Shown here piece after piece: positions 37,205 through 64,000 of a stretch of DNA of 64,000 nucleotides (position 1 is the stretch's first letter; each line of letters starts with the position of its first letter). Where the stretch lies: the NCBI GenBank assembly GCA_002416285.1, contig DICM01000019.1, positions 1,632 through 65,631 on the forward strand, given 5' to 3'. Source of the stretch: Bacillales bacterium UBA5026. GTDB taxonomy: Bacteria > Bacillota_I > Bacilli_A > RF39 > UBA660. Under the pieces are notes generated by a model. That model ran no database searches and was not told the origin of the DNA. It worked only from the letters and a program-made list of their open reading frames with translations. The position numbers were made by a program, and so were the translations under genes.

Positions 37205-38611
37205 ATGAATGAAAAGGGTTTTGCAGTTTCAGGTATTTTATATTCTATTTTATTACTATTCATGATTATTGTAATTAGTGTAATAACAATGCTTGGAGAT
37301 CGCCGTACAGTACTAGAGAGAATCAAAAGAGAAGTCTTAGGAGAGCTTAGTGAAAATATAAGTGATTTTTATGATGAGGCAAAAGGTGTAAATAAACCGC
37401 AACTTTCTAGTGGGATGACACCGATTAAATGGGTTGGTGGAGTGGAAACGGTAACTACAGTAGATGATCCAGATTGGTATAATTACTCTAATAAATTATG
37501 GGCTAATGTTAAGACTGCTGATGGATCATATTGGGTATGGATACCAAGATACGCATATAAGATAACCAGTGGATATCACAGTAGTACAACGGGTACAATT
37601 GATGTTAAATTTTTAAAAGGAAGTTCCAATTTAACTGCTGATGGAACAACGATTGAAAGTAATGGATACTTTGCTGGAAGTAATGATACTTCAATGCATT
37701 ATTTTGTTCATCCTACTTTTCAAAATAATATTAACAAATATGGGTTTTGGGTAGCAAAATTTGAACCAACTGCTGCAGAGGGTGTAGCAAATGGATATCG
37801 TTCTGATTGGACATGTCCAACAATAGGAGATGATGTCACAACTAAAACAATTAAAGTCGTACCAAATGTTCAAAGCTGGAGATGTATTAGTATTTCAAAT
37901 GCTTATAATGCGAGTTTATCTATGAAAATGAAGACAATTTATGGATGGGAATTAAATAGTGTTGATTCCCATATGATGACAAACTTAGAATGGGGATCAA
38001 CGTATTATTTAACTTTATCAAAATACGGAGCTAATACAAATGAGGTATATATCAATAATAGTCAAACTTATATAACAGGATGTGCAGGAAATACAGCTTC
38101 TGAAACCTCTTATAATGGGTGTCAGAATGCCTATAATACTGCAATAGGTGTGAAAGCAAGTACGACATGGAATATTACGGGAATTTATGATATGAGCGGC
38201 GGAGCTTGGGAAAGAATGATGGGAGTTTACAATGATGTAATAGAGTCTAGTGGATTTACTACAAATGAGTTAACTAGTATTCCATCTAAATATATTACAA
38301 AATATACAACACCAACTTCTAATTTATTAAACAATGTAGGAATGGATTATGATGCAACCATCTATGGTGATGGAATCTATGAAACAAGTACAGGGGCATT
38401 CCGCTATAATGGTACAATATGGGCTGGAAATTCTCAAGGAGGTTGGGGAAATGAAATAACTTATCTTCCAACGGTTACTGGAGCATGGTTTAGTCGTGGA
38501 ACACATTTTGATTATACAGGTTTTGCAGGACTGGGTAGTTTTAGTGGGTACTATGGTAGTAAAGCGTATAGTTACGGTACCTTTCGTCCAATTGTTTCTA
38601 TAATAAAATAA
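37205..38611 (+). CDS. membrane-anchored protein with ComGG-like pseudopilin N-terminus and FGE/SUMF1-like C-terminal domain (tentative)
   Basis: N-terminus MNEKGFAVSGILYSILLLFMIIV (pilin-like, but no Glu at +5). From KGVNKPQL onward it is roughly 70% identical, by eye, to the C-terminal 400 aa of 51285..52940. Motif order WVWIPRYAYK, HPTFQ, WVAKFEP, YDMSGGAWER, SRG..F, FRPIV resembles FGE-sulfatase domains. Confidence 0.55.
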   Translation: MNEKGFAVSGILYSILLLFMIIVISVITMLGDRRTVLERIKREVLGELSENISDFYDEAKGVNKPQLSSGMTPIKWVGGVETVTTVDDPDWYNYSNKLWANVKTADGSYWVWIPRYAYKITSGYHSSTTGTIDVKFLKGSSNLTADGTTIESNGYFAGSNDTSMHYFVHPTFQNNINKYGFWVAKFEPTAAEGVANGYRSDWTCPTIGDDVTTKTIKVVPNVQSWRCISISNAYNASLSMKMKTIYGWELNSVDSHMMTNLEWGSTYYLTLSKYGANTNEVYINNSQTYITGCAGNTASETSYNGCQNAYNTAIGVKASTTWNITGIYDMSGGAWERMMGVYNDVIESSGFTTNELTSIPSKYITKYTTPTSNLLNNVGMDYDATIYGDGIYETSTGAFRYNGTIWAGNSQGGWGNEITYLPTVTGAWFSRGTHFDYTGFAGLGSFSGYYGSKAYSYGTFRPIVSIIK

Positions 38612-43156: not shown

Positions 43157-43172
43157 AAAAGGAGAAATAAAT

Positions 43173-44198: not shown

Positions 44199-44202
44199 TA
44201 GG

Positions 44203-44238
44203 AAAAAGAGTTGAAAAACAAATAAAAACTCTTTTTTT
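44203..44238 (+). terminator. rho-independent terminator after gap
   Basis: 10-bp stem AAAAAGAGTT / AACTCTTTTT followed by T residues. Confidence 0.6.
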
Positions 44239-44321
44239 ATTTGTTTCAATTTTCTTTTTTATAATAACCTTGAAAAACGATAAGAAAAATTATACAATAG
44301 TAACAGAGAATAGGTGAAAAT

Positions 44322-46016
44322 ATGAAAGAAATAAAAAGGGAAAATGCTTTTACTTTAGTTGAACTACTAGGTGTTTTTACATTGATTGGAGTAATATTAC
44401 TAGTTGTTGTTCCAAATGTAACACAGTTACTAACAAAATCAAAAGGTCAGGATTACGAACGCTTTTTGAATGATATCTATTTGGCAACGGAAGCATATAT
44501 TCAAGGAAAGGGAAAAGAGTACTCAACTCTTGATACCGTGAGTGGAAAAGCTTTTGTACAAGTAAGAGAACTAGTTGATAACGGTTACTTAACAAGTACT
44601 AAAGTAAATCCTCAAACTAATCAAAAAATAAATTTGGATGCTACAGTAGTCGCGTTAAAAACGCCATCAGGAAATATTACATATGATTTTGTAAATTCAG
44701 ATATTACTATTAATGCATATAAAAAAACAGGTTTATTATTAAGTTATAGTATTGATTCAAAACCAACTACAATCTGGAAAGATCAAAGCGGAAGTGAACT
44801 CGGAAATGATGGTCAATTAATGGGATTTACTGCAAATAATGGATTTCAAGGGAACTCTGTTTATTTAGATGGAACAAACTATATTTTATCGAATGTCATT
44901 AATCCTGTTCAAGTGACTCTAAGTACCTATATAATGGTTCCAGAATTTAGTTCTGCAGAGCAAGTTTTAATGTCAAATTATGAAGGTGGAGGATATGGCT
45001 TTGTAGTAGATCAAAGTGGAAATCGTAAAATAGCTTTTCAAATCAATGTCAATGGAACTTACTATCAAATTAATTCTACAAAAAACTATGAGACAAATCG
45101 CTATTATCAACTAGTTGGTACTTACGATGGAACTACTATGAAATTTTATCTTGATGGAGTATTGCAAGGAACTAAAACAGTCGCTGGAAATATTACAGCA
45201 CCACAGAACTCTACTCATTTTATGGTGGGAGGAAATCCCAATGGAACCGTAGCCACTACAAAAACGAAATCTTATGTAAGTTCTGTTAAAATTTACAATC
45301 ATGCTTTAACAGAACAAGAAATAATGAACGATTATCAATTAGATAAAGCACGTTATAGTAGTCAACAGGAAAACTATGTAGAAGGATTACTTGCCCAATA
45401 TGATAGTTATAGTAAACCTATGAATAATGTTTGGAACGATTTGACTGGAAACGGGAAACATGCAACCATGAGCGGTTTTAATAACACTGTATCCAGTGGT
45501 TGGAATCAATTTAAATTAACATTAGATGGAATCGATGATTATATACAGACACCTAATGTTTTAACAACTAATAAAAATTATACTATTCAAATTGTATTTC
45601 AAACAGAGACGACGGCTGCTTGGGCTGACATTATGACATTTAATAGTGGAAACGTCTCAAATGATATGAATGGTCGTATCGAAATAGTTGCAGATTTGAA
45701 AAAGTATTATTGGTATGGTCCTGGCCCTATTCCTACTGGAACATCTATATTTGAAATGAATAATAAAATTCCGGCAACCATAACAATGTCAGTTGGAAAT
45801 GAAAAAACGATAGTTTATGTAGATAATGAGGTTACATATCAAGGAGCTACACAAGAATATAATAATGGGCAGTATGCATCGATTAATTTTGGTAAGCGAA
45901 TTGAAGGTGGCAATATGAACTGTACTATTTATGCGATTCGTATCTATAACAAAGCCCTAACAAAAGAAGAAATAATGAAAAATCATCAATTGGATCATTT
46001 CCGTTTTGGAATCTAA
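44322..46016 (+). CDS. prepilin-signal protein carrying two LamG (concanavalin A-like lectin) domains
   Basis: N-terminus MKEIKRENAFTLVELLGVFTLIGVILLVVVP (class III signal with Glu5). Two LamG_3-like units end in VKIYNHALTEQEIMNDYQLD and IRIYNKALTKEEIMKNHQLD. Own promoter TTGAAA...TATACAAT upstream. Confidence 0.7.
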   Translation: MKEIKRENAFTLVELLGVFTLIGVILLVVVPNVTQLLTKSKGQDYERFLNDIYLATEAYIQGKGKEYSTLDTVSGKAFVQVRELVDNGYLTSTKVNPQTNQKINLDATVVALKTPSGNITYDFVNSDITINAYKKTGLLLSYSIDSKPTTIWKDQSGSELGNDGQLMGFTANNGFQGNSVYLDGTNYILSNVINPVQVTLSTYIMVPEFSSAEQVLMSNYEGGGYGFVVDQSGNRKIAFQINVNGTYYQINSTKNYETNRYYQLVGTYDGTTMKFYLDGVLQGTKTVAGNITAPQNSTHFMVGGNPNGTVATTKTKSYVSSVKIYNHALTEQEIMNDYQLDKARYSSQQENYVEGLLAQYDSYSKPMNNVWNDLTGNGKHATMSGFNNTVSSGWNQFKLTLDGIDDYIQTPNVLTTNKNYTIQIVFQTETTAAWADIMTFNSGNVSNDMNGRIEIVADLKKYYWYGPGPIPTGTSIFEMNNKIPATITMSVGNEKTIVYVDNEVTYQGATQEYNNGQYASINFGKRIEGGNMNCTIYAIRIYNKALTKEEIMKNHQLDHFRFGI

Positions 46017-46072
46017 CAAAATTGTAATAAATATAAATGAAAAAATATGGTAAAATAAAAAAGGAGGGAACT

Positions 46073-50200: not shown

Positions 50201-50250
50201 CTTCTTTATTTCTGTAAAGAAAGTGTTAAAATTTTGGTTTTTTAAAATTC

Positions 50251-50257
50251 TTCGACA
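50251..50257. promoter_or_regulatory. candidate Spo0A box (TTCGACA, reverse complement of TGTCGAA)
   Basis: Exact 7-mer about 90 nt upstream of the spo0A start. A single short match. Confidence 0.3.
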
Positions 50258-50346
50258 AAAATAGATGAATTTTGCTCTAGTAATAGGATACCTGTTTGTA
50301 GTATAATTAAATTCAAGGTAAGCAGTACTTTAGAAAGGGAATCGAT

Positions 50347-51123: not shown

Positions 51124-51129
51124 TATTAC

Positions 51130-51166
51130 AAAGAAATCAGAAAATCAATTTTTTCTGATTTCTTTT
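51130..51166 (+). terminator. rho-independent terminator after spo0A
   Basis: 15-bp perfect stem AAAGAAATCAGAAAA / TTTTCTGATTTCTTT with loop TCAATT. Confidence 0.8.
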
Positions 51167-51284
51167 GTATTTAATATATGAATTTATAAAATTATTCGTT
51201 GAATTTCAAAATTGATTGTGTTAGAATGAAGGAGAATAGGATTGCTCTAGGCAAGCATACTAGATTCTAGAAGGAAGCTTTATT

Positions 51285-52940
51285 ATGAAACAAAAAAATG
51301 GTTTTACGTTGATTGAATTATTAGCGGTTATTGTAATTCTTGCAATTATTGCTTTAATTGCAACACCAATGATTTTAAGTGTAATTGATAGCGCAAAAAA
51401 AGGTGCTGTCGAATCAAGTACCTACGGATACATTGATGCAATTGAGAAATCAGATCTACAAGATATGATCGATACAGGAACTTATCAAACGAAAAAAGAT
51501 GGAACCTACGATTTAAATACGATTGGAACAGTAAACTATAAAGGAAAAAGCCCAGCATTAATTTGTGTACTTATGAAAGATGGGAGTGTTGAATCTGGAT
51601 ATTTTAAATTTGACTCTTATATTGTCGAGTATAAGAATGGAAAAGCAAAAGTAAACAGTGATTTAACAACAGTTGATTGTACGGTGACAGCTAGTGACTC
51701 TGCATTCAATATAACAAAAGGAGTGAATGCCCCACAATTAACAGAAGGTATGACACCGATTAAATGGGTTAATGGGGTGGAGACAGTGACCACAGCTGAT
51801 GATCCAGAATGGTATGACTATAATAATAAATTATGGGCAAATGTAAAGACGAAAGACGGATCTTACTGGGTATGGATACCAAGGTATGCTTATAAAATCA
51901 CAAGTGGATATCATTCTAGTACTAAAGGTACAATTGATGTAAAATTCTTAAAAGGAACAAGTGATATAGCTGTTGATAATACAAAGATTGAAAACAGTGG
52001 ATATGTAGCTGGAACAAAAGATACCTCAATGCATTATTTTACCCATCCAGCATTTCAAAATGATATTAATAGATATGGTTATTGGGTAGCAAAATTTGAA
52101 CCGAGTGTCGCAGATCAAACAGATACGTGTTATACAAGTCCGAGTTCTGCAAATTGTAATAAATCAACTTTAACAATTAAAATAATACCAAATGTAAGTA
52201 GTTACCTTAGTATTAGTGTTAAAAACGCCTATAACACAAGTGTAGCAATGAAAATAAAGAGAAACATTTATGGATGGAATGAAAATCAAGTTGATTCTCA
52301 TATGGTAACAAGCCTAGAATGGGGAGCAATCTATTATTTAACTTTATCGATATATGGAGCGAATACAAATGAGGTTTATATCAATAATAGCAATACATAT
52401 ATAACGGGATGCGCGGGAAATACAGCTTCTGCGACAGCTTATAATGGGTGTCAAAATGCTTATAATACAGAGATAGGAGTAAAAGCAAGTACAACTTGGA
52501 ATATTACAGGAGTTTATGATATGAGTGGTGGAGCTTATGAGAGAACAATGGCAGTCTATAATAACTTATTAGGTATGAGTGAATTTACAGCTGAAGAATA
52601 TAACCGTTTACCTAGTGACCACATTACAAAATATACAACATCTAATGCTAATTTATTGGAAGATAAAGGAATGGATTATGATGCAACAGTGTACGGTGAT
52701 GGAGTATATGAAACAAGTAGTGGTGCATATCGTTTAAGTAGCCAAAGAGGATGGGTTGGAATAGAACAAGGGGAATGGGGTAAAGAAGAGAGTTATCTAC
52801 CATATGTCTATGGACCATGGATTATCCGTGGTGGGTACTTTAATAGCACCACAGGAGCTGGTATTGGAGGATTCAATAATCCAGATGGTAGCACTTTCAG
52901 TTACGCTTCATTTCGCCCTATAGTTTCATCTCTACAATAG
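51285..52940 (+). CDS. prepilin-signal protein with pilin-like stalk and FGE/SUMF1-like C-terminal domain
   Basis: MKQKNGFTLIELLAVIVILAIIALIATP (canonical class III signal). The first ~125 aa are homologous to the N-terminus of the 58484 ORF. The C-terminal ~400 aa are paralogous to 37205..38611 (YDMSGGAYER, IRGGYF, SFRPIV). Confidence 0.7.
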   Translation: MKQKNGFTLIELLAVIVILAIIALIATPMILSVIDSAKKGAVESSTYGYIDAIEKSDLQDMIDTGTYQTKKDGTYDLNTIGTVNYKGKSPALICVLMKDGSVESGYFKFDSYIVEYKNGKAKVNSDLTTVDCTVTASDSAFNITKGVNAPQLTEGMTPIKWVNGVETVTTADDPEWYDYNNKLWANVKTKDGSYWVWIPRYAYKITSGYHSSTKGTIDVKFLKGTSDIAVDNTKIENSGYVAGTKDTSMHYFTHPAFQNDINRYGYWVAKFEPSVADQTDTCYTSPSSANCNKSTLTIKIIPNVSSYLSISVKNAYNTSVAMKIKRNIYGWNENQVDSHMVTSLEWGAIYYLTLSIYGANTNEVYINNSNTYITGCAGNTASATAYNGCQNAYNTEIGVKASTTWNITGVYDMSGGAYERTMAVYNNLLGMSEFTAEEYNRLPSDHITKYTTSNANLLEDKGMDYDATVYGDGVYETSSGAYRLSSQRGWVGIEQGEWGKEESYLPYVYGPWIIRGGYFNSTTGAGIGGFNNPDGSTFSYASFRPIVSSLQ

Positions 52941-53154
52941 TTTCCAAAAGGATCTTTCTGAGTAAATAGATTTTATTCAGTAGTAAAATGACCACACTAG
53001 AGTTTATATTTTTAATAGCAGTACTATTGGTTACTTGCTATTTTTTTGTGAATGAAAACAAAATGTCTAAAAATGAGAAATCCAACCAAATCCATATTAT
53101 TTTTGGTAACAAATATCATATTTTATGGTAAAATATTGAACGGAGATGATTATT

Positions 53155-56007: not shown

Positions 56008-57020
56008 AAAAGAAAAATAAAATAGCAATTTTTACTTTAATCTTTATTGACCTTTGTATCATGATGTTTCTTTTTTTGAGTTACGGACCAATTAATTATT
56101 TCCGTGATCTTTTGATTACAACAGCGATGTCAACCAAGAGTCATAAGTATCTCGCATATACTCTATATGATGATGGAACAATTCTATCGGTATTAAAAAA
56201 TAATTATACAAAAGAAATAACAGATGATACTGATACAAGTCATATTAAATTAACAGACATTAAAGAACAAGATAATTATGATTCAAAATATGAGGAACAG
56301 ATCTTAAAGAAAGATGAAGAGAATGATCTTTATAAAGTAATTTCACTTAGTGGAAATGGATACAAAGGATATGTAGTAGCAATCTATGATCCCACTAGAA
56401 TATCACTAGTAACTTCAAAATATTTAGGATCAAGTGGTCAGTTTTTAAATACGATGGCAAAAGAACAAAGTGCGAAAGTAGCGATTAATGCTGCTGGATT
56501 TGTCGATATTGGTGGAGCTGGTGATGGAGGAACTCCGACTGGACAAATGATTCAAAATGGTAAACTGATATGGAATGGTGCCGCAACTGGCTGGGGCGGA
56601 GGACTGGCAGGATTTACCAAAGATGGTATTTTGATGCTGACACATAGTAATGCTGCAGAAGCAATCAAATCCGGAATGGTCGATGGTGTTGAATTTGGAC
56701 CATTTCTTGTGGTAAATGGACAAGCTGCTGAGATAAAAGGTAACGGTGGAAGAGGTGTTCATCCACGTACTATTTTAGCGCAACGACAAGATGGTATCGT
56801 TCTATTCTTTATTATCGATGGAAGACAACCTGGTTACAGTATTGGCATTAGTTTAGCTGATATGACAGATTTATTATTAAAATACAAAGCTTATAATGCA
56901 GTAAATTTAGATGGTGGAGCTTCTAGTAGCCTAAATATTAATGGAAAAATAATAAATAAACCATGCGCAGTGAGTGCTACTGGAGAAAGACCAATCCCTG
57001 CTGCTTGGATGTTAAAATAA
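56004..57020 (+). CDS. phosphodiester glycosidase (DUF2233) family protein, membrane anchored
   Basis: N-terminal TM. AINAAGF, GFTKDGILML, FGPFLVVNG, HPRT, IDGRQPGYS, NLDGGASS. ATGA overlap with the upstream stop. Confidence 0.7.
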   Translation: MKKKNKIAIFTLIFIDLCIMMFLFLSYGPINYFRDLLITTAMSTKSHKYLAYTLYDDGTILSVLKNNYTKEITDDTDTSHIKLTDIKEQDNYDSKYEEQILKKDEENDLYKVISLSGNGYKGYVVAIYDPTRISLVTSKYLGSSGQFLNTMAKEQSAKVAINAAGFVDIGGAGDGGTPTGQMIQNGKLIWNGAATGWGGGLAGFTKDGILMLTHSNAAEAIKSGMVDGVEFGPFLVVNGQAAEIKGNGGRGVHPRTILAQRQDGIVLFFIIDGRQPGYSIGISLADMTDLLLKYKAYNAVNLDGGASSSLNINGKIINKPCAVSATGERPIPAAWMLK

Positions 57021-57112
57021 GAGTCAATTGAAGTGATACATTAAAAGTAGACAAGAGAAAAAAACTCAGTCTACTTTTTTGTATGGTAAAATTTTAATAA
57101 GGAGTTGATTTT

Positions 57113-57427
57113 ATGGCAAGACCAAGTGGAACTAAAAATGTAATGAGAACCCCTGAAGAAAAAGAAAAAATAGTACTTGAATATTTAAACACTAAATGTA
57201 GTCAACAAACAATTGCTGAAAAGTATGAAATAATGAGAAGAGTACTGCAACAATGGATACAAAAATATGAACAGTACGGAATTGTTGGATTAAAATCAAA
57301 AACAGGGAAACATCAAAATTCTAATGCAGGAAAATATAATCGACATCCATCTGAAGAAGAAAAATTGAAACAGAAAATAACAAGGTTGGAAATCGAGGTA
57401 GCCCGATTAAAAAAGGTTATCAGGTGA
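57113..57427 (+). CDS. IS3-family transposase OrfA (HTH / leucine zipper)
   Basis: RTPEEKEKIVLEYL...SQQTIAEKYEI...LQQWIQKYEQYG and a C-terminal heptad region ending at the slippery site. Confidence 0.85.
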   Translation: MARPSGTKNVMRTPEEKEKIVLEYLNTKCSQQTIAEKYEIMRRVLQQWIQKYEQYGIVGLKSKTGKHQNSNAGKYNRHPSEEEKLKQKITRLEIEVARLKKVIR

Positions 57428-57530
57428 AAGGAGTTGGGGATCAAAAGGAATACGTTACTATATTCGATGTGAATATGAAATAATTGACTATTTTAGTAAT
57501 AATTATTCTATAACTACTCTTTGTAAGTTA

Positions 57531-58340
57531 ATGTCAGTAAGTAAATCGGGTTTCTATAAATGGAAATATAGGAAATCTAACCCATCAACAAGAGAATTAT
57601 CCAGGCAAGAAAATGTCAGACTGATAAAAGAAGTCCATAATAGACATCCTTCACATGGTTACGGATGGATAAATGCTTTTATTAAAAATAAATACGGAAA
57701 GGTTTTTAGTGATAATTATGTTCATCGAATCTGTAAATATGAAGGTATTCGGTCCCAAGGCAAACATTATCGATGGAAAAATCCAGGAGAAGAACAATAT
57801 AAATCCAATAATTTAATTTGGAATGAGTGGAGTTGTTTAACTAGACCATTAGAGGTAATCGTTTCTGATATGACGGCATTTCGTGTAAAAGGAATTTACT
57901 ATGAATTAGCATTGTACTTTGATGCATGGAACAAAGAAATCATTGGTTATGGTCTTGATTCCAGAAAAGGAAGTACAAAAACATATTATGAAGGCTTGTA
58001 CCAAGTTTTAGACAAAATAAAAGACCAAACCACTGATCTAGTAATTCTACACACAGATCAAGGATCGGTCTACGCATCGAAGTCATACAATGACCTCGTA
58101 GAAAATTATAACATAGAAAGGTCTATGAGTCGAGCTGGAACTCTAACTGATAATCCCGTTAACGAATCCTTAAATGGTTGGATTAAAGAGGAGTTGTATA
58201 TTGATTTTGATTTAAAACATTGTAATAATGTATCAAGATTAATTGAAAAATATATTTACTATTTTAATAATGAACGGCCTTCCTATGCCTTAAACTATAA
58301 AACCCCAATTCAATTTAAACATGAATTAGGGTTTCTATGA
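57531..58340 (+). CDS. IS3-family transposase OrfB (DDE/rve core), apparently not reachable by the canonical -1 frameshift
   Basis: VSKSGFYKW, VSDMTAF (D), LHTDQGSVY (D), NPVNESLNGWIKEE (E). See the IS finding for the extra frame disruption at about 57463-57470. Confidence 0.8.
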   Translation: MSVSKSGFYKWKYRKSNPSTRELSRQENVRLIKEVHNRHPSHGYGWINAFIKNKYGKVFSDNYVHRICKYEGIRSQGKHYRWKNPGEEQYKSNNLIWNEWSCLTRPLEVIVSDMTAFRVKGIYYELALYFDAWNKEIIGYGLDSRKGSTKTYYEGLYQVLDKIKDQTTDLVILHTDQGSVYASKSYNDLVENYNIERSMSRAGTLTDNPVNESLNGWIKEELYIDFDLKHCNNVSRLIEKYIYYFNNERPSYALNYKTPIQFKHELGFL

Positions 58341-58483
58341 GTTTTTTATAAACTGTCTACTTTTGCTTGACTAGTTCAATTGACTCTTTTTTACTTTTCT
58401 TTTAAACCCTAAATTGGTCTATAAATGTTGTTTTTCATACTAGAAAATGGTATCATAAAGAAGTATAGGGTAAGGTGTCAAGT

Positions 58484-61400
58484 ATGAAGAAAAATGGATT
58501 TACATTAATTGAATTGTTAGCGGTAATTGTGATAGTAGGAGTGTTATCCTTAATCGCAACTCCAGTTATTTTAGGAGTGATTGAGAGTGCTCGAAGAGGA
58601 GCAGCTGTCAATAGTACTTACGGTTATGTGGAGGCAATTGAAAAGTCTAGTCTTCAAGATATGATTGATAAAAGTGAATATATCACGAAGAAAGATGGAA
58701 CCTATAGTGCAGAGACAATTAAACCTGTAAAATATAAGGGAAACGATCCAGTCGATGTATGTGTAACCATTCAAAATGGAGAAGTTTACTCTGGTTCATT
58801 TCAGTTTGGCAAATATGTTGTTGATTATGAAGATGGAAAAGCAGCGATTAATGATGAAAAAGAAAATGCAGGTTGTGGAGGAAATAGTGAGAATCCAGAA
58901 GAGAAACCAAAAGATAGTGATGATTTAAAAGAAGACACCAAAGTAAAAAATGGAGAGAATTATTATATCGGAGCAAACCCAAAGAACTGGGTCTTATTTG
59001 GTAGGGCCGATGAGAGTGATAGTAGTAGTCTACTAATGTGGCGAATTATCAAGATTGATAAAAACGGAATTAAGATGGTCTATGAAGGAATCCAAAATGG
59101 AGAGAATGTACCGTTAGAGGATGGAAGAGCATTGTTAAATGGAACGATGGGAGTTGCTTGGAATAGTAATGGTACAAACCTTTGGAATGAGAGTGATTTA
59201 AAAGAGAAACTAACTAGTTGGTTATCCAGAATTGCAGTAGTAGATATGAGTAAATATGTTGAAAGTACAACATGGAATATTGGAGGAATACCTGATCTTA
59301 ATCCAACGACATTAAGAACCTTTTTAGAGTATGGGAATATTGATAGTAATGGATTAGGAGGAACATATCAAGGAATCACGGATACGAAAAGTCCAATTGG
59401 AATGATAAGTCCATGGGATTATATGTATACGAGTAGTAATGAGGAATGTAGTAAGAGTTATGTATCAGCAGGAACAAGTAATGAGTGTTCACTTGATAGT
59501 GAAGGAAGATTAAATAACTTTTTATATAAAAACAAATATTCTTATTGGACGATGAATGCAGTAAATAGTGCAAGTGATCAAGCATGGAATATCACGAATT
59601 CAGGAATTATTGCCAGTAGACAAGTGAACTATAGTATTTATTCTGTAAGACCAGTATTAAATTTAAAACTTGATACGAAGTTTGTTACTGGCGATGGAAG
59701 TATTGAAAATCCATATATCGTAGAAGATTATCTAGCAAATCTATTCGTGAAACCAGAAATCAAATTAAATGGAGAGAAAACAGTTGTTCTTTACCAAGGA
59801 GAACAATATGTTGATGCCGGAGCAACGGCATACGACGAACAAGATGGAGATATTAGTAATAAAATTACGACCGAAAGCAATCTGGATGTGAACAAAGTAG
59901 GAAGTTACACAATTACATATAATGTAACCGATAGTGATGGGAATAAGGCAATACCGGTAACTAGAATCGTGAAAGTAGTAGAAAAAGATACCCCAAGAAT
60001 TACCTTGAATGGAGAAAATCCTAGTTATATAACAGTTGGAAATACCTATACTGAATTAGGAGCCAAAGCGATGGATCCAAACTATGGAGACATTAGTAGT
60101 TCGATTGTTATTAATGGAATTGTAGATACGAATACACTTGGAACTTATTATTTAACGTATCATGTAACGAATCAAGATGGACTAGAGGCAATACCAGTAG
60201 AACGAAGAGTGGTGGTGAAGGCATCTACTCCTAAAATTACCCTAAATGGAAGTAGCTTAGCTTTAGTAGAGGTTGGAGCTTCTTATATGGAAGAAGGAGC
60301 AATCGCTAGTGACTCAGTGGAAGGTGATTTAACAGATCGAATTAGAATCACTGGAAATGTAGATACCAGTATGGTTGGCATCTATCAAATCCGCTATTCT
60401 GTAACAAACTTTTATGGTGCGAATGCATATGTAGATAGAAGAATCAATGTCGTTGGGGTAGCAGGTCCCGAAATTACTTATACACCAAATGAAGAAGAAA
60501 GTGCGAAAGTAGGACAAAGTACTACAATTGAAGTAAAAAAGAAAAGTTATGATATTGATTCGAAGACACTAAAATATTTTACTTATAATAAGGTATCAGG
60601 AGCTTTGCCTAGCTATGAGACAATAGAAGAGTTTGAACGTCTTTTTCGGACAAGTTATAAAGATAGAGAAATATTAAAAATTGGAAAAGGAACAGGAGAA
60701 TACTATTTCTATGCAATGGCAAAAGATGTCTATAAAGATACAACTTATAAAGAATCAGGATTATTCCGTTTAGATAATTTTGCTCCTATCATTACATTAA
60801 ATACTGGGGCAAATAGAATTTTAATTAATAGCACATATATAGATCCAGGAGCGACAGCATATGATGCCTATTTTGATGGAGATTTAACGAATCAAATAAC
60901 AGTTCAAAATAAAGTCAACACGAGTAAAGAGGGGATTTATCAAGTAATTTATAAGGTAAGTGATAGTGTTGGAAATGAAACAAAAAAAGTCCGTAATATC
61001 GAAGTCTATCATTCTGTTCCAACCATTGGGCTAATTGGAGGAAGTAAAATAAAAGTACGCTATGGTAGCAGTTACATAGATCCAGGGTATACAGCAATGG
61101 ATGAGATTGATGGTGATTTAACAAGTCAGGTGAAAGTAACTGGAACTGTCGATACTTCGAGAGAAGGAAGTTATGAAGTTATATATCAAGTAAAAAACTC
61201 GTTAGGATATGAAACAACGAAGACTAGAATTGTTGAAGTATATATTCCAAGTCCAGTGATTACAATCAGAGGGGCAAATCCAGCGAAAGTGAGAGTAACG
61301 AGTACTTATAATGATGCTGGAGCAACTGCTCTTGATGAAATCGATGGGGATCTTACTAATAAGATTACTGTAATTAGTAATATTAATACTATGGTAGAAG

Positions 61401-64000
61401 GAACGTATGAGGTAGTTTATCATGTTACTAACAGTTTAGGAAAGACAACTACAGCAACAAGAATTGTTCAAACTTATGCAGAAATGCCAGTAATTACGTT
61501 AAAAGGAGACAATCCGACAATTCTATATAAAGGGGCTACATACACCGAAGCAGGAGCAATCGCGACGGATCCAGTAGAAGGAGATATTAGTTCTAATATT
61601 ACAATTAGTGGAATAGTAGATACAAAAAAAGCAGGAAATTATATAATCACTTATGAAGTGACCAATAGTTATGGAAAGAAAGTAAAAATAGAGCGCTCAG
61701 TAATTGTTCGAGCTTCAGCTATTCGAATTGCACTAAAAGGAGAAAGTATTGTAACATTACTTCGAGGAACACAGTATGTCGAAGCGGGATATAGTGCAGT
61801 GGATGAGATTGATGGGGATATTACAAGTAGTATAGTAATCGACTTAGGGGGACTCAATATTAATAAAGCAGGAACCTATACGATTACTTATACTGCTACG
61901 AATCCTAGCGGAGATAAAGCTACGGTGAAGCGTACCATAATTATCAGAGATCCAAAAGTAGAAATCACATTAAATGGAAATAGTGTGGTAGAAGTGCCAA
62001 TTGGATACCCCTATAGTGACCTAGGAGCAACGGCAATGGATGAGTTACTTGGAGATGTTAGTTCAACCATTACAGTAGAACACAATATCAATACCAATGT
62101 ACTAGGTATTTATCAAGTTACTTATAGAGTGGTTAGTAGTGGAGTAATTGCTACCAAAGAACGAACGGTTAAAGTAGTCGCTCTTTCTGGACCAACTGTA
62201 ACGTTTGAAACGAATGGAAACGGAAGTTATTTGAAAGAGAATCAAACAAAAGTAACCGTATCGAAAAATAACTATGATTTCGTAGTCGATTCCATTTTCT
62301 ACCAGTGGACGACCAGTTTGAGTCGACCAAGTGAATCAAGCTTTCAAACACACTTTGCTTCAGGAGATATAGTTAAAACCCCAGAGCAAGCAACTGGAAA
62401 GTATTACCTATGGATACTAGCCAAAGATACGTATGGAAATACAACAGTCGTACCAAGTAATGCATTCCATCTAGATAATACTGCACCAGTCTTAACCTTA
62501 AAAGGAAAGAACCTAATCGAAGTACCAGCGGATGGAACGTATCAAGATCCAGGAGTAACGGTAGTAGAAAATGATAGTGGATTAGATAGCAATGGAGTAG
62601 TCATTACATCAAATGTGATTTCTGGAGTAATTGGAACGTATCAAGTTGTTTATACAGCAACCGATAAAGTAGGAAATGTAGCAGAGCCTGTAAAACGTAC
62701 GGTGTCAATTATTGAAGCACGATTACAAGATGCCCCAGGAGAAGGATATGTCAAGAAATATGATACTTCGTACTTTGTTGGAGAGAATCCAAATAATTAT
62801 GTAGTCTTTGGAAATGCAGCAACAAATGACTATGATTATATTCCGATTTTATGGAGAATCATTAAGGCTGACGATAATGGGATTAAGATTATCTATGAAG
62901 GAGTAAAACAAGGAACCGGAACCAAAGAGAATGGAACGATTGGAAGTTCTAGTTATGATTCTACTAACAATAACTATAACCGACCAGCAGATATCATAAG
63001 TATTTTAAATAATTTCTATAATAATTTAAAAGAGGAAGATAAGGCAAGTTTAACAAAAGCGATCAATTGGTGTGTTGGAGCAACGAGTAGTCCATATAAT
63101 ATTGATGCCTTTCGAACAGATGAATGTAATACGTTATCGACAAACAAGAGTGTGATTGGATTGGTGAGTGGGTTAGATTACCTATTTACAACCGGATCTG
63201 CATGTGATGCTTATAATCAAGCTTCCTGTGGAAATCAAAACTTCTTAAAGAAGAGTTATAATTATTTCACAATGAGTAGTGATATTGAAAGTCAAGTATC
63301 ACAGTTTATTGCAAACAGTAATGGTGCATTAACAAGAACTGAAGTAACAAGCAAACAAGAAATTCGCCCAGTGATTAATCTTCGCCCAGATGTGTTAATC
63401 AAAGGTGGAGAAGGAACGTATGAAAAACCATACCAGTTAAATAATCGTGTACCAGTAGAAGACACGAAAGCACCAACGGTAAAGTTCTCACCAAATGAGG
63501 CAACGGGAAACTTAGACGGAGTAGAAGTATTAGTGAGTGATGACATCACTGGAGTGGACAACAATAGTTTAAAATATGTATGGACAACGAATACGACCCA
63601 ACCGAGTGTTGATAAGTTTGTGAACAATTTCTCAAATGGAGATAAAGTTCTAGTACCAACAGAACAGTCAGCAACCTACTATTTATGGATTCTAGCGAAA
63701 GATCGAAAAGGGAATCAGAGTATTACGAGAAGTGGACTTTATAAGATTGATAATGTACCACCAGTGATCACAATTAAAGGAGATAATCCCTATTCACAGA
63801 AACCAGGACTAACTTATGTCGATGCTGGAGCAACGGCAGTGGATGCGATTGATGGGGCAGTATCTGTTCAAACAACAACAAATGTAAATCCAAATATCGA
63901 AGGAACATATCAAGTAACGTATACAGCAGTGGATAAAACAGGGAATAAAGCAACGGCAGTAAGAACTGTTGTGATCGGATATTTAGAGATACGAACACCA
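58484..64000 (+). CDS. giant prepilin-signal surface protein (at least 1,839 aa, 3' end outside the window) with Ig-like (DUF5011-type) repeat array
   Basis: ATG 58484 lies 6 nt after AAGGTG. My hand translation of this frame found no stop up to base 64000. N-terminus MKKNGFTLIELLAVIVIVGVLSLIATP. Not in the ORF track (no stop in the window), and the track lists only short minus-strand ORFs across this region. Confidence 0.85.
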   Translation, partial: MKKNGFTLIELLAVIVIVGVLSLIATPVILGVIESARRGAAVNSTYGYVEAIEKSSLQDMIDKSEYITKKDGTYSAETIKPVKYKGNDPVDVCVTIQNGEVYSGSFQFGKYVVDYEDGKAAINDEKENAGCGGNSENPEEKPKDSDDLKEDTKVKNGENYYIGANPKNWVLFGRADESDSSSLLMWRIIKIDKNGIKMVYEGIQNGENVPLEDGRALLNGTMGVAWNSNGTNLWNESDLKEKLTSWLSRIAVVDMSKYVESTTWNIGGIPDLNPTTLRTFLEYGNIDSNGLGGTYQGITDTKSPIGMISPWDYMYTSSNEECSKSYVSAGTSNECSLDSEGRLNNFLYKNKYSYWTMNAVNSASDQAWNITNSGIIASRQVNYSIYSVRPVLNLKLDTKFVTGDGSIENPYIVEDYLANLFVKPEIKLNGEKTVVLYQGEQYVDAGATAYDEQDGDISNKITTESNLDVNKVGSYTITYNVTDSDGNKAIPVTRIVKVVEKDTPRITLNGENPSYITVGNTYTELGAKAMDPNYGDISSSIVINGIVDTNTLGTYYLTYHVTNQDGLEAIPVERRVVVKASTPKITLNGSSLALVEVGASYMEEGAIASDSVEGDLTDRIRITGNVDTSMVGIYQIRYSVTNFYGANAYVDRRINVVGVAGPEITYTPNEEESAKVGQSTTIEVKKKSYDIDSKTLKYFTYNKVSGALPSYETIEEFERLFRTSYKDREILKIGKGTGEYYFYAMAKDVYKDTTYKESGLFRLDNFAPIITLNTGANRILINSTYIDPGATAYDAYFDGDLTNQITVQNKVNTSKEGIYQVIYKVSDSVGNETKKVRNIEVYHSVPTIGLIGGSKIKVRYGSSYIDPGYTAMDEIDGDLTSQVKVTGTVDTSREGSYEVIYQVKNSLGYETTKTRIVEVYIPSPVITIRGANPAKVRVTSTYNDAGATALDEIDGDLTNKITVISNINTMVEGTYEVVYHVTNSLGKTTTATRIVQTYAEMPVITLKGDNPTILYKGATYTEAGAIATDPVEGDISSNITISGIVDTKKAGNYIITYEVTNSYGKKVKIERSVIVRASAIRIALKGESIVTLLRGTQYVEAGYSAVDEIDGDITSSIVIDLGGLNINKAGTYTITYTATNPSGDKATVKRTIIIRDPKVEITLNGNSVVEVPIGYPYSDLGATAMDELLGDVSSTITVEHNINTNVLGIYQVTYRVVSSGVIATKERTVKVVALSGPTVTFETNGNGSYLKENQTKVTVSKNNYDFVVDSIFYQWTTSLSRPSESSFQTHFASGDIVKTPEQATGKYYLWILAKDTYGNTTVVPSNAFHLDNTAPVLTLKGKNLIEVPADGTYQDPGVTVVENDSGLDSNGVVITSNVISGVIGTYQVVYTATDKVGNVAEPVKRTVSIIEARLQDAPGEGYVKKYDTSYFVGENPNNYVVFGNAATNDYDYIPILWRIIKADDNGIKIIYEGVKQGTGTKENGTIGSSSYDSTNNNYNRPADIISILNNFYNNLKEEDKASLTKAINWCVGATSSPYNIDAFRTDECNTLSTNKSVIGLVSGLDYLFTTGSACDAYNQASCGNQNFLKKSYNYFTMSSDIESQVSQFIANSNGALTRTEVTSKQEIRPVINLRPDVLIKGGEGTYEKPYQLNNRVPVEDTKAPTVKFSPNEATGNLDGVEVLVSDDITGVDNNSLKYVWTTNTTQPSVDKFVNNFSNGDKVLVPTEQSATYYLWILAKDRKGNQSITRSGLYKIDNVPPVITIKGDNPYSQKPGLTYVDAGATAVDAIDGAVSVQTTTNVNPNIEGTYQVTYTAVDKTGNKATAVRTVVIGYLEIRTP
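59750..62715 (+). repeat. array of ten ~78-aa (~234-nt) coding repeats of DUF5011/Ig-like type (an eleventh lies at about 63760-63985)
   Basis: Each unit fits P.I.L.G.n....G..Y.d.GA.A.D...GD(I/L)(S/T)..I.....(V/I)(D/N)T...G.Y...Y.V....G.......R.V.V. Units start near 59750, 59988, 60226, 60790, 61012, 61244, 61479, 61713, 61951 and 62485. The array is interrupted by ~105-aa modules at 60463-60790 and 62182-62490. Confidence 0.8.

What the first reader, a model, noticed from the sequence alone, without database searches (positions are those of the whole stretch)
58484..64000. Giant ORF missing from the ORF track: a prepilin-signal protein of more than 1,839 aa with an Ig-like repeat array
Seen in sequence: my hand translation from ATG 58484 (AAGGTG 6 nt upstream) found no stop through the last base of the window. 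That is 5,517 nt, or 1,839 codons. The supplied track lists only short minus-strand ORFs here, presumably because an ORF without a stop was not reported.

The product starts with a canonical type IV pilin class III signal, MKKNGFTLIELLAVIVIVGVLSLIATP. It then has a ~125-aa stalk homologous to the N-terminus of 51285..52940.

Module order after the stalk:
- 'WRI...RPV...NPY' module 1 (about 58950-59732).
- 3 Ig-like repeats.
- A ~105-aa module ending GEYYFYAMAKD...LDNFAP.
- 6 Ig-like repeats.
- A second such module (GKYYLWILAKD...LDNTAP).
- 1 Ig-like repeat.
- 'WRI' module 2 (about 62740-63440).
- A third such module (ATYYLWILAKD...IDNVPP).
- At least 1 further Ig-like repeat.

Inference: this is a very large surface adhesin carrying a pilin-type export and assembly signal. 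Pilins are normally 100-200 aa, and known modular pilins carry one grafted domain, so this architecture is well outside what I know to be described.
Basis: partly seen in the sequence, partly recalled or inferred. Interest (0 to 1): 0.85.

Follow-up and report, generated by a model that had tools for sequence, protein, structure and literature searches.

The report
Giant 2,979-residue modular type IV pilin
The open frame is a real gene for a 2,979-residue surface protein from an uncultured Bacilli genome (its relatives are mostly gut MAGs): a normal type IV pilin head carries about 2,850 residues of lectin-like, Ig-like and beta-helix modules, about 3.5 times the largest modular pilin named in the 2021 survey I read.

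Summary
Window 58484-64000 (+) has 1,839 codons and no stop. The gene runs on to 2,979 aa in the parent contig.

The N-terminus is a canonical class III (prepilin) signal: MKKNG|FTLIELL, with Glu5 and Pro22. It passes the Pfam and NCBIfam cut-offs. AlphaFold models aa 1-131 as a pilin fold.

The passenger holds two DUF6273 / C-type-lectin-like modules, 11 DUF5011 Ig-like repeats and three copies of an unassigned ~99-aa module. Beyond the window lie two GLUG beta-helices. There is no LPXTG, no second hydrophobic segment and no HExxH.

At least 22 protein clusters of 2,000-3,100 aa from uncultured Bacilli carry the same signal. Some of these genes sit in tandem.

The same pilin module also occurs alone (124-170 aa) and on hundreds of 300-700-aa modular pilins. 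Some of those are targets of diversity-generating retroelements; the giant is not.

The kind, a modular pilin, is known (Raynaud 2021; largest cited 860 aa). The scale and the family appear undescribed in the literature I could search.

Most likely mechanism: the pilin module is cleaved by a prepilin peptidase, and a type IV filament displays the passenger as an adhesin, probably at its tip. This is inferred. No assembly genes lie in the 77 kb I could see; two related MAGs do carry them.

I rate it a new variant of a known kind, interest about 0.6.

The parts
58472..58477 (+). Shine-Dalgarno-like AAGGTG, 6 nt upstream of the ATG at 58484
   Evidence: Read directly from the sequence.
58484..58498 (+). 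Class III leader peptide MKKNG (aa 1-5). Predicted prepilin-peptidase cleavage after Gly5.
   Evidence: PF07963 and TIGR02532 hits above cut-off. G-1, F+1 and E+5 are invariant or nearly so in the 41-sequence alignment A1.
58484..58876 (+). Pilin module (aa 1-131): hydrophobic alpha1N (aa 6-30), Glu5 and Pro22 (mature numbering), and a small beta-sheet with Cys93 and Cys131
   Evidence: AlphaFold gives helix 8-63 followed by strands at 72-122. It is the only hydrophobic segment in the protein. It is 58% identical to the N-terminus of ORF 51285-52940. Homologous stand-alone pilins of 124-170 aa exist. PDB sequence hits include PilA 9laa.
58877..58948 (+). Acidic, low-complexity linker (aa 132-155)
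   Evidence: pLDDT below 50 at aa 133-139.
58949..59731 (+).
   Evidence: PF19789 scores 22.9 bits, just under the 23.5 cut-off. pLDDT is about 95. Foldseek matches 9qa6, T. ramosa IgAse, at E = 3e-7; the match most plausibly falls on its NTD, a C-type-lectin-like domain (PMC12237041). Phage DUF6273 proteins top the BFVD search.
59744..60472 (+). Ig-like repeats 1-3 (PF16403 / DUF5011), aa 421-663
60467..60787 (+). X module 1 (aa 662-768), an unassigned ~99-107-aa beta-rich module ending ...YYFYAMAKD...LDNFAP
   Evidence: Conserved in 32 family proteins. Only sub-threshold Big_3 and cadherin hits. No profile relation to the Ig repeats.
60779..62197 (+). Ig-like repeats 4-9 (aa 766-1238)
62192..62488 (+). 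X module 2 (aa 1237-1335)
62480..62737 (+). Ig-like repeat 10 (aa 1333-1418)
62738..63457 (+). DUF6273-like C-type-lectin-like module 2 (aa 1419-1658), 35% identical to module 1
   Evidence: No Pfam hit of its own at E <= 1.
63473..63763 (+). X module 3 (aa 1664-1760)
63752..64000 (+). Ig-like repeat 11 (aa 1757-1840), cut by the window end. The gene continues for 3,423 nt: two GLUG beta-helix modules, with the stop at window-equivalent 67423.
57015..58392 (+). IS3-family insertion sequence (orfA 57113-57427, orfB 57531-58340) with 50-nt imperfect inverted repeats. Its right end lies 92 nt upstream of the giant gene's ATG.
51285..52940 (+). Paralogous 551-aa modular pilin: same pilin module plus a ~410-aa C-terminal module with no family hit
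44322..46016 (+). 564-aa modular pilin with two Laminin_G_3 (concanavalin-A-like lectin) stretches, the architecture of S. sanguinis PilC
   Evidence: PMC8179133 describes PilC.
37205..38611 (+). 468-aa pilin-like protein. Its leader MNEKG|FAVSG has Gly in place of Glu5. Its C-terminal 410 aa are 66% identical to those of the 551-aa pilin.

Best explanation
The frame encodes a genuine 2,979-residue (about 317 kDa mature, pI 4.9) modular type IV pilin.

Shown by sequence or prediction:
- A canonical class III signal: 5-residue basic leader, Gly-1, Phe+1, Glu+5, a ~21-residue hydrophobic alpha1N, and Pro22.
- A 131-aa pilin fold.
- After a short disordered linker, about 2,850 residues of non-pilin modules in this order: CLec/DUF6273, 3 Ig, X, 6 Ig, X, 1 Ig, CLec/DUF6273, X, 1 Ig, then 2 GLUG beta-helices.
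- No other membrane anchor, no sortase signal and no catalytic metalloprotease motif.

Inferred mechanism:
1. The Sec system exports the protein, and its alpha1N holds it in the membrane.
2. A bifunctional prepilin peptidase removes MKKNG and methylates Phe1.
3. A type IV filament machinery encoded elsewhere in the genome loads the pilin module into a filament built from ~140-160-aa major pilins.
4. Because of its bulk, it most likely enters at the start of assembly and ends at or near the tip. The Ig/X array then acts as a long spacer. The lectin-like and beta-helix modules bind ligands, plausibly host or microbial glycans or glycoproteins.

A monoderm has no secretin pore to limit passenger size. 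That may be why such giants can exist here.
For: Gene reality:
- 1,839 stop-free codons, chance about 1e-68.
- The full-length protein was recovered.
- Collinear orthologues from independent assemblies are 75% and 73% identical (P0002, 3,082 aa; P0003, 2,225 aa).

Pilin identity:
- PF07963 and TIGR02532 score above their cut-offs.
- F6, T7, L8, E10 and L11-I15 are invariant, and G5 and P27 nearly invariant, in 41 homologues.
- AlphaFold (mean pLDDT 87) gives a 56-residue N-terminal helix plus a beta-sheet.
- The PDB sequence search finds PilA and a geopilin.
- The same module occurs as stand-alone 124-170-aa pilins, including tandem triplets with identical N-termini, the usual look of major pilins.

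Single anchor: one hydrophobic segment, no LPXTG, no HExxH.

Family:
- The 20 best full-length homologues, and 22 clusters of at least 2,000 aa in all, begin with G|FTL[IV]E.
- Two or three such genes lie in tandem in L087 and L088.

Binding modules:
- The CLec module matches T. ramosa IgAse and phage DUF6273 / tail-fibre proteins.
- The GLUG module is a beta-helix like the accessory domain of S. pneumoniae IgA1 protease and like BACOVA_03286.
- Homologous pilin+DUF6273 proteins are DGR targets. This marks the module as a diversifiable ligand-binding surface.

Machinery in the clade:
- T2SSF platform plus A24 peptidase with its N-terminal domain in L012.
- A Tad-like ATPase/platform locus with an embedded N_methyl gene in L059.

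Concept: modular pilins are experimentally established and are argued to be tip-displayed (PMC8179133; PMC10191384).
Against: - No prepilin peptidase, ATPase or platform gene lies in the 77 kb of this contig that I could read. I could not inspect the rest of the genome.
- Across 1.36 Mb around 86 related pilin loci, only two loci hold machinery genes. The link to a filament therefore rests on homology, not on gene linkage.
- No pilin anywhere near this size has been shown to be polymerised. The passenger is about 22 times the size of the pilin module and would have to cross peptidoglycan.
- The protein keeps Glu5, whereas the capping subunit of a tip complex typically lacks it (PMC10191384).
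- An IS3 element ends 92 nt upstream of the ATG, and no convincing promoter was found in between. Expression is unknown.
- Ligands are unknown.
Confidence: 0.55

Rival explanations
1. Pilin-anchored but not polymerised. The class III signal and pilin module serve only as an export-and-tether device. After (or even without) cleavage, alpha1N stays in the membrane, and the 2,850-aa array projects through the wall as a cell-bound fibrillar adhesin. In this clade the prepilin N-terminus would replace sortase/LPXTG anchoring. This would be analogous to archaeal non-pilin proteins that carry class III signals.
For: - The giant genes, and most of the 133 prepilin-type ORFs seen in 1.36 Mb of clade DNA, are scattered among housekeeping genes and unlinked to machinery.
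- A crude motif scan of the same DNA found no LPXTG tails and no sortase catalytic motif.
- The passenger is far larger than any pilin known to polymerise.
- Among the best 150 relatives of the pilin module, most are 300-700 aa, so they are modular rather than classical.
Against: - Glu5, Pro22 and the whole globular pilin fold are strictly conserved. A mere anchor should not need them, because Glu5 and the beta-sheet are filament-assembly interfaces.
- Classical stand-alone pilins in tandem, together with peptidase, platform and ATPase genes, exist in the clade.
- The LPXTG/sortase scan used regular expressions on a biased DNA sample.
Confidence: 0.3
2. A DGR variable protein. The two C-type-lectin-like modules would be hypermutated by a diversity-generating retroelement, so the gene would be a mutable receptor.
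For: - Homologous 414-aa pilin+DUF6273 genes in L005 sit directly after bAvd and a reverse transcriptase. Their 103-nt TR/VR pair has 15 of 21 mismatches at template adenines.
- A homologue of the window's 551-aa pilin has a TR/VR pair and an RT in L015.
Against: - No template-repeat copy of either module and no RT lies in the 77 kb available.
- The VR-equivalent segments are more conserved than the protein average among the three orthologues: above 85% there, against 73-74% overall.
Confidence: 0.03
3. An artefact or dead gene: an assembly chimera, a repeat-expansion artefact, or a pseudogene silenced by the upstream IS.
For: - The source is a MAG.
- The out-of-window part contains an 1,830-nt tandem duplication with a 300-nt stretch that is 100% identical. 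The number of GLUG modules could therefore be mis-assembled.
- An IS3 element lies immediately upstream.
Against: - The 8.9-kb frame is intact.
- Independent assemblies give collinear orthologues of 2,225-3,082 aa.
- The in-window repeats are too diverged to collapse.
- The IS lies outside the coding sequence.
Confidence: 0.04
4. An IgA-protease-like enzyme, suggested because both non-Ig module types find IgA protease structures as their best PDB matches.
For: Foldseek top hits are T. ramosa IgAse (9qa6) for the CLec module and S. pneumoniae IgA1 protease (6xja, 7uvl) and BACOVA_03286 (3n6z) for the GLUG module.
Against: - For IgAse the CLec-like NTD is a non-catalytic accessory domain, dispensable for its activity (PMC12237041). 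That the pneumococcal beta-helix domain is also non-catalytic is my own recollection, not a tool result.
- The protein has no HExxH motif and only 7 His in 2,979 residues.
- No peptidase family hit appears in Pfam or NCBIfam.
Confidence: 0.02

Closest known systems
Streptococcus sanguinis modular minor pilins PilB (pilin + vWA) and PilC (pilin + concanavalin-A-like lectin), Raynaud et al. 2021 PNAS (PMC8179133)
   Same: A class III signal and a small pilin module are joined by a short linker to modules not specific to pilus biology. Both come from monoderm hosts and are proposed to be displayed at the tip as adhesins. The window's 564-aa neighbour (pilin + Laminin_G_3) has the PilC architecture.
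   Different: By the paper's description PilB and PilC are bimodular, each with one grafted module, and their genes belong to the pil system. This protein has about 20 passenger modules in 2,979 aa. Its gene sits among glycolysis and housekeeping genes, with no machinery nearby.
The most extreme modular pilin in the 2021 InterPro survey: an 860-residue Candidatus Falkowbacteria protein with 12 IPR013211 repeats (PMC8179133)
   Same: A pilin N-terminus followed by a long array of repeats.
   Different: This protein is about 3.5 times longer. It combines four or five different module types (DUF5011 Ig, X, DUF6273/CLec, GLUG beta-helix). It also belongs to a family of at least 22 clusters of 2,000-3,100 aa in Bacilli MAGs.
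Large minor pilins with extra structural domains: CofB/TcpB (T4bP), ComZ (Thermus), GspK (T2SS), as discussed in PMC8179133
   Same: Pilin module plus additional domains, located at the tip, involved in priming.
   Different: As far as I recall, none of these exceeds roughly 600 aa (not checked here). Their extra domains are system-specific rather than generic adhesin modules.
PilY1/PilC tip adhesins of diderm T4aP
   Same: A large modular adhesin presented at the pilus tip, sharing module types with modular pilins (PMC8179133).
   Different: PilY1 is not a pilin. It docks through a beta-propeller onto minor pilins. Here the carrier is a pilin module fused in cis.
Giant fibrillar adhesins with Ig-like stalks (for example SiiE, or the Mobiluncus mulieris 7,651-aa adhesin, PMC10619420; SasG)
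   Same: Long tandem Ig-like arrays act as a stalk that projects binding domains. All are acidic, repeat-rich surface proteins.
   Different: Those proteins use T1SS, or a Sec signal plus LPXTG/sortase. This one has a class III prepilin signal and no C-terminal anchor.
DGR variable proteins with a C-type-lectin fold (Mtd, TvpA, DUF1566) and DGR-diversified type V pilus adhesins of Bacteroides (bioRxiv 10.1101/2024.11.15.621889)
   Same: The DUF6273 module has a CLec-type fold. Homologous small pilins in L005 and L015 are bona fide DGR targets.
   Different: The giant's own modules show no TR, no RT and no hypervariability.
Archaeal non-pilin proteins with class III signal peptides (for example Sulfolobus sugar-binding proteins, the 'bindosome'). 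This rests on my own knowledge and reviews such as PMC2910488.
   Same: A pilin-type signal used on large, functionally diverse surface proteins encoded away from the assembly genes.
   Different: A different domain of life, a different peptidase (PibD) and different N-terminal features. Those proteins are not giants.

Membership tests
Type IV pilin (class III signal peptide; PF07963 / TIGR02532 / IPR012902) | Short hydrophilic leader ending in Gly/Ala, then a ~21-residue hydrophobic stretch with Glu at +5 | tested here: met
   MKKNG|FTLIELLAVIVIVGVLSLIATP. PF07963 scores 27.4-29.5 bits (cut-off 21.2) and TIGR02532 30.1 (cut-off 16.3). The motif residues are invariant in 41 homologues.
Type IV pilin | Alpha-beta pilin fold: a long N-terminal alpha1 helix packed on an antiparallel beta-sheet | tested here: met
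   AlphaFold2 with a 41-sequence alignment gives helix 8-63 and strands 72-75, 91-97, 100-108, 111-116 and 119-122, with block pLDDT mostly 76-92 and a dip to 59 at aa 61-70. This is a prediction, not a solved structure.
Type IV pilin | Leader cleaved and Phe1 N-methylated by an A24 prepilin peptidase | not testable with these tools
   This needs N-terminal proteomics. An A24 peptidase with the A24_N_bact domain exists in a related MAG (L012). None is visible in the 77 kb of this contig.
Type IV pilin | The genome encodes a type IV filament machinery (extension ATPase, platform protein, peptidase) | tested here: inconclusive
   None in window + L001. Present in related MAGs: L012 (T2SSF + A24) and L059 (TadZ-like, T2SSE, T2SSF x2, TadE-like).
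Type IV pilin | Incorporation into a filament | not testable with these tools
   This requires pilus purification or immuno-EM.
Modular pilin sensu Raynaud et al. 2021 | An N-terminal pilin module fused through a linker to one or more domains not specific to type IV pilus biology | tested here: met
   Pilin module aa 1-131, disordered linker aa 132-155, then DUF6273-like, PF16403 x11 and GLUG modules.
DUF5011 / Bact_surface_Ig-like (PF16403) repeat proteins | Tandem ~75-80-aa Ig-like repeats matching PF16403 | tested here: met
   11 stretches, 613 bits against a cut-off of 27.
DUF6273 (PF19789) / C-type-lectin-like fold | Match to the family profile, and a CLec-like fold | tested here: inconclusive
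   By sequence, 22.9 bits against a cut-off of 23.5, and only for module 1. By structure, phage DUF6273 proteins (prob 1.0) and 9qa6 T. ramosa IgAse (E = 3e-7), whose NTD is a C-type-lectin-like domain, are the top matches. Homologues P0070 and others pass the cut-off.
DGR variable protein | A VR paired with a nearby TR that differs at adenines, plus a DGR reverse transcriptase | tested here: not met
   No TR-like copy and no RT in 77 kb. The VR-equivalent segments are conserved among orthologues. The feature is met for homologues in L005 and L015.
Sortase-anchored (LPXTG) Gram-positive surface adhesin | An N-terminal Sec (class I) signal and a C-terminal LPXTG motif, hydrophobic segment and basic tail | tested here: not met
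   No LPxT[GAN] anywhere. The C-terminus is ...IPSQVYIGE. The only hydrophobic segment is aa 6-30.
IgA-specific metallopeptidases (M26 / M64) | A catalytic HExxH zinc site and a peptidase domain | tested here: not met
   No HExxH and no peptidase family hit. Only accessory-domain folds are shared.

The most novel reading that the evidence does not exclude
In this clade of small-genome, spore-forming, uncultured Bacilli (relatives recovered mostly from gut samples), the type IV pilin module may have become the general carrier for the cell's surface proteome. Dozens of unlinked genes per genome would fuse one conserved pilin head to lectins, Ig arrays, beta-helices, DGR-diversified binding domains and passengers of up to 3,000 aa. 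This carrier would functionally replace sortase/LPXTG display. The filament machinery would then be able to present 300-kDa cargos, something not known for any type IV filament.
Probability: 0.25. Interest if true: 0.8.

Novelty: new variant of a known kind. Interest (0 to 1): 0.6.

Why it matters
Type IV filaments are among the most widespread prokaryotic surface machines. How they gain functional versatility is an active question. Modular pilins are the current answer, but every characterised case carries one modest module.

A conserved family of 2,000-3,100-aa pilins stretches that concept by several-fold. It poses a concrete mechanistic question: can an extension ATPase and platform load, and a filament carry, a 300-kDa passenger through a Gram-positive wall? 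Or has the pilin N-terminus been co-opted as a simple anchor?

The finding also points to a large, unannotated adhesin repertoire in uncultured Bacilli, most of whose relatives were recovered from gut samples. Public records call these proteins only 'immunoglobulin-like' or 'DUF5011 domain-containing'. Some relatives are hypermutated by DGRs.

These proteins are candidate determinants of attachment to host mucus, glycoproteins or other microbes.

Tried and rejected
1. DGR target. I was prompted by finding bAvd + RT upstream of homologous pilin+DUF6273 genes. I searched 77 kb for template repeats of both lectin-like modules and compared orthologues. There is no TR, no RT and no hypervariability, so I rejected this for the giant.

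2. Protease. The IgA-protease structural hits concern accessory domains, not a catalytic domain. There is no HExxH.

3. Conserved downstream partner. The small ORFs after the giant genes in L001 and L004 are both lipoproteins but show no evident similarity by eye.

4. Linked machinery. Pfam scans of window ORFs found nothing in the window. Motif and phmmer scans of all 86 loci then held found machinery only in L012 and L059. Candidate 'operons' next to tandem small pilins in L014 and L074 turned out to be unrelated housekeeping genes.

5. X module identity. I tried Pfam, a PDB profile search and an hhalign comparison with the Ig repeats.

6. Promoter. The consensus scan found no plus-strand site between the IS end and the ATG.

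7. Literature. Searches for DUF5011 + pilin, giant + pilin, and DGR + type IV pilin found no description of such proteins. [quoted passage not shown]

8. LPXTG/sortase. The regex scan is crude. I use it only as a hint.
Full report
OBSERVATION

Translating window 58484-64000 (+) gives 1,839 codons without a stop. With this region's base composition the chance of that is about 1e-68. The other five frames of the same stretch stay open for at most 127 codons.

The ATG at 58484 is preceded by AAGGTG with a 6-nt spacer and by an in-frame stop 7 codons upstream. The ORF listing does not report the frame because ORFs that run off the source are not listed.

The protein database holds the complete product, P0001, 2,979 aa and 100% identical over the window part. 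It lies on a 98,925-nt contig, DAMCXE010000002.1 of assembly GCA_032085635.1. Window position 1 corresponds to contig position 1665. The stop codon lies 3,423 nt beyond the window end.

ANATOMY

Signal and pilin module. The N-terminus MKKNG|FTLIELLAVIVIVGVLSLIATP matches PF07963 (27.4-29.5 bits, cut-off 21.2) and TIGR02532 (30.1 bits, cut-off 16.3).
- It has every hallmark of a class III signal: a short basic leader ending in Gly, Phe+1, Glu+5, about 21 hydrophobic residues, and Pro22.
- An AlphaFold2 model of aa 1-425, built on a 41-sequence alignment (mean pLDDT 87.2), shows a 56-residue N-terminal helix (aa 8-63) followed by a four-to-five-stranded sheet (aa 72-122). That is the pilin fold.
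- A disordered linker follows (pLDDT below 50 at aa 133-139), then a compact module with pLDDT about 95.
- Residues 2-131 are 58% identical (E = 2e-37) to the N-terminus of the 551-aa ORF at 51285-52940, including two conserved Cys.

The two 'WRI...RPV' modules (aa ~156-416 and ~1419-1658, 35% identical).
- Module 1 scores just under the DUF6273 cut-off: 22.9 bits against 23.5.
- Structurally, the best PDB match is the Thomasclavelia ramosa IgA peptidase (9qa6, E = 3e-7). Its N-terminal domain is described as an enlarged C-type-lectin-like domain resembling the Legionella Lcl / DUF1566 domain, and it is dispensable for catalysis (PMC12237041). Foldseek does not report which IgAse residues aligned. 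I take the match to fall on that domain because weak CD23 lectin-domain hits appear in the same list and because of the phage result below.
- In the viral structure library the top hits are phage 'DUF6273 domain-containing' proteins and tail-fibre or receptor-binding proteins.

Ig-like repeats. Eleven PF16403 (DUF5011) repeats lie at aa 421-663 (3), 766-1238 (6), 1333-1418 and 1757-1840. They are 28-55% identical to each other. No long DNA repeats occur in the window part, which argues against assembly collapse there.

X modules. Three ~99-107-aa modules (aa 662-768, 1237-1335, 1664-1760; 35-39% identical) are conserved in 32 related proteins. I could not assign them. Pfam gives only sub-threshold Big_3 hits, the PDB profile search only E ~ 0.8 cadherin hits, and hhalign shows no relation to the Ig repeats.

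GLUG modules. Beyond the window lie two GLUG-motif modules, 88% identical. They arise from an 1,830-nt tandem duplication.
- AlphaFold models one as a right-handed beta-helix (pLDDT above 90 for aa ~30-475).
- Its best PDB matches are BACOVA_03286 (3n6z) and the S. pneumoniae IgA1 protease (6xja, 7uvl).

What is absent. The protein has no HExxH and only 7 His. It has no LPXTG. It has a single hydrophobic segment, aa 6-30. The mature protein is about 317 kDa with pI 4.9.

FAMILY AND CONTEXT

The giant family.
- The 20 best full-length homologues (2,025-3,082 aa), plus P0022 and P0039, begin with a leader followed by G|FTL[IV]E. That makes 22 clusters of at least 2,000 aa.
- Orthologues P0002 and P0003 (75% and 73% identical, from independent assemblies) are collinear across the window part. 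They differ in the number of C-terminal GLUG modules.
- Other genomes hold two or three giant prepilin genes in tandem (L087, L088).
- Public names are only 'immunoglobulin-like' or 'DUF5011 domain-containing protein [Bacilli bacterium]'.

Relatives of the N-terminal part.
- The N-terminal 425 aa alone finds 828 proteins at E <= 1e-5. Many are 350-420-aa 'pilin + DUF6273' proteins covering 97% of the query. Others join the same pilin head to Laminin_G_3, DUF285, LRR, Big_2, fn3 or Ig modules.
- An exhaustive search with the pilin module alone finds 8,090 cluster representatives at E <= 1e-3 and 1,461 at E <= 1e-10. The best 150 range from 124 to 1,318 aa and are mostly 300-600 aa.

Taxonomy and density.
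- A scan of one genome per species places the relatives almost entirely in uncultured MAGs labelled Bacilli, Tenericutes, Mycoplasmatota or Erysipelotrichaceae. By their isolate names most appear to come from gut or rumen samples (Hadza and Nepali human cohorts, rabbit, chicken - Candidatus Fimihabitans - mouse, ruminants), though some sources are unclear. Several loci come from the same genome.
- In the 1.3 Mb fetched I counted 133 prepilin-type ORFs. They include tandem triplets of classical 138-159-aa pilins with near-identical N-termini (L011, L014).

The window itself.
- It holds four pilin-like genes interleaved with gap, pgk, tpi, spo0A and gpmI: 44322-46016 (564 aa, Laminin_G_3, the PilC-like architecture), 51285-52940 (551 aa), the giant, and 37205-38611.
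- The last, 468 aa, has the leader MNEKG|FAVSG, with Gly in place of Glu5.
- An IS3-family element (57015-58392, with 50-nt imperfect inverted repeats) ends 92 nt upstream of the giant's ATG.

MACHINERY

No prepilin peptidase, T2SSE ATPase or T2SSF platform gene lies in the window or in the 13 kb downstream. The flanks of homologous giants also lack them.

Related MAGs do encode such genes.
- L012 carries a 731-aa T2SSF protein and a 254-aa A24 peptidase with the A24_N_bact domain, 4-7 kb from a pilin+DUF6273 gene.
- L059 carries a Tad-like locus: two TadE-like genes, a TadZ-like gene, a T2SSE gene, a 341-aa N_methyl protein, and two T2SSF genes.

These were the only two of the 86 loci then held, plus the window, with machinery genes. 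In this clade, pilin genes are thus generally unlinked from assembly genes. Whether this particular genome has a machinery could not be tested.

DGR SIDE-FINDING

In L005, two 414-aa pilin+DUF6273 genes each follow a reverse transcriptase, one of them preceded by bAvd. A 103-nt TR/VR pair differs at 21 positions, 15 of which are template adenines. In L015, a homologue of the window's 551-aa pilin has a TR/VR pair (86% identical over 116 nt) and an RT.

For the giant itself I found no TR and no RT in 77 kb. The VR-equivalent segments are more conserved among orthologues than the protein average. The giant is therefore not DGR-diversified. The association does mark the DUF6273 module as a ligand-binding surface.

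MECHANISM

Shown: a class III signal, a predicted pilin fold, a single anchor, a multi-module passenger made of folds used elsewhere for binding and spacing, and conservation of the whole design across a family.

Inferred: Sec-dependent export, cleavage after Gly5 and N-methylation by a PilD-type peptidase, and loading of the pilin module into a type IV filament built of the clade's small pilins.

Filaments assemble from tip to base, and bulky modular pilins are argued to sit at the tip (PMC8179133; PMC10191384). The most likely position is therefore the tip complex, possibly capped by a Glu5-less subunit such as the 468-aa protein. The Ig/X array would then be a long spacer, and the lectin-like and beta-helix modules would be the binding ends. 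A monoderm has no secretin to restrict cargo size, which may be what permits giants here (inference).

The main rival is that the pilin head is used only as a membrane tether. Three things favour this rival: the lack of gene linkage, the sheer number of such genes, and the absence of LPXTG or sortase motifs in a crude scan. Against it stands the strict conservation of Glu5, Pro22 and the globular pilin fold. I put 0.55 on filament display and 0.30 on tether-only.

COMPARISON WITH WHAT IS KNOWN, AND NOVELTY

Modular pilins are established (S. sanguinis PilB and PilC). A 2021 InterPro survey counted more than 1,200 of them in 264 architectures. Some are multi-domain, the most extreme being an 860-residue protein with 12 repeats (PMC8179133).

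What I could not find described is a pilin of this size, or a family of 2,000-3,100-aa pilins.

The protein meets the sequence and predicted-structure criteria of a type IV pilin and of a modular pilin. It fails those of LPXTG adhesins, DGR variable proteins and IgA proteases. Processing, machinery and polymerisation remain untested.

I rate it a new variant of a known kind, with interest 0.6. It would surprise a pilus specialist and it poses a testable mechanistic question, but it extends an existing concept and rests on prediction only.

Noticed in passing
window 37205-38611 (+): A 468-aa protein with no Pfam or NCBIfam hit. Its N-terminus MNEKG|FAVSGILYSILLLFMIIVISV looks like a class III signal with Gly in place of Glu5. 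Residues 60-468 are 66% identical to the C-terminal module of the 551-aa pilin at 51285-52940. Pilins lacking Glu5 typically cap tip complexes, so this is a candidate capping subunit.
   Followed up: partly
L005:8000-11245 and L005:1-2247; L015:10001-13956: Diversity-generating retroelements target type IV modular pilins. In L005, bAvd + RT precede a 414-aa pilin+DUF6273 gene (TR 9597-9699, VR 11072-11174, 15 of 21 mismatches at TR adenines), and a second RT+target pair lies upstream. In L015, a 543-aa homologue of the window's 551-aa pilin has VR 11514-11629, TR 11881-11996 and an RT. I found only a passing mention of 'G-type pilin' DGR targets in one survey (PMC11661182).
   Followed up: partly
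window 43101-56007: Modular pilin genes and envelope genes (LPG_synthase_TM, GT4) are interleaved within the glycolytic cluster gap-pgk-tpi-gpmI. spo0A sits between tpi and a pilin gene. This is an unusual arrangement for a normally compact operon.
   Followed up: no
window 53146-56007 (+): The gpmI ORF is 953 aa, but the iPGM match covers only aa 5-501. The ~450-aa C-terminal extension has no Pfam hit. It is followed, with a 4-nt overlap, by a NAGPA phosphodiester glycosidase gene (56004-57020).
   Followed up: partly
window 57015-58392: An IS3-family element (orfA/orfB, 50-nt imperfect inverted repeats) sits between the NAGPA gene and the giant gene. A similar IS lies just downstream of the orthologue in L002 (16756-17852, minus strand).
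   Followed up: partly
window 32687-40935: A run of ORFs (280, 394, 468, 200, 100 and 258 aa) has no family hits, in DNA of 25-28% GC, below the window average. ORFs 32687 and 33612 share the N-terminal motif ...YLKIALEVE... SASP-like ORFs lie at 36513-36788 (+) and 36839-37114 (-).
   Followed up: no
L001:15861-17990 (window-equivalent 64344-66473, outside the window): An 1,830-nt tandem duplication inside the giant gene contains a 300-nt stretch that is 100% identical. It produces two GLUG beta-helix modules that are 88% identical. Orthologues have one (P0003) or three (P0002) such modules, so the copy number is evolutionarily labile and could be mis-assembled.
   Followed up: partly
L087:10001-26831; L088:2748-16078: Other Bacilli MAGs carry two or three giant prepilin-signal genes (2,025-2,416 aa and a further one above 2,097 aa) in tandem. 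In L004 and L087 they lie at a conserved site downstream of dnaE-frr-DUF218-DUF8173. Many of them end in a glycine-rich PF12810 module instead of GLUG.
   Followed up: partly
L059:79-7164: A Tad-type locus in an Erysipelotrichaceae MAG: two TadE-like genes, a TadZ-like ATPase, a T2SSE gene and two T2SSF genes. A 341-aa PF07963 (GFTLxE-type) pilin gene is embedded in it, and one T2SSF protein carries a DUF5011 Ig-like domain.
   Followed up: no
all 86 loci then held + window (1.36 Mb): A crude motif scan found 133 prepilin-type ORFs but no LPXTG sorting signal and no sortase TLxTC motif. This hints that the clade may rely on pilin-type rather than sortase-type surface display.
   Followed up: partly
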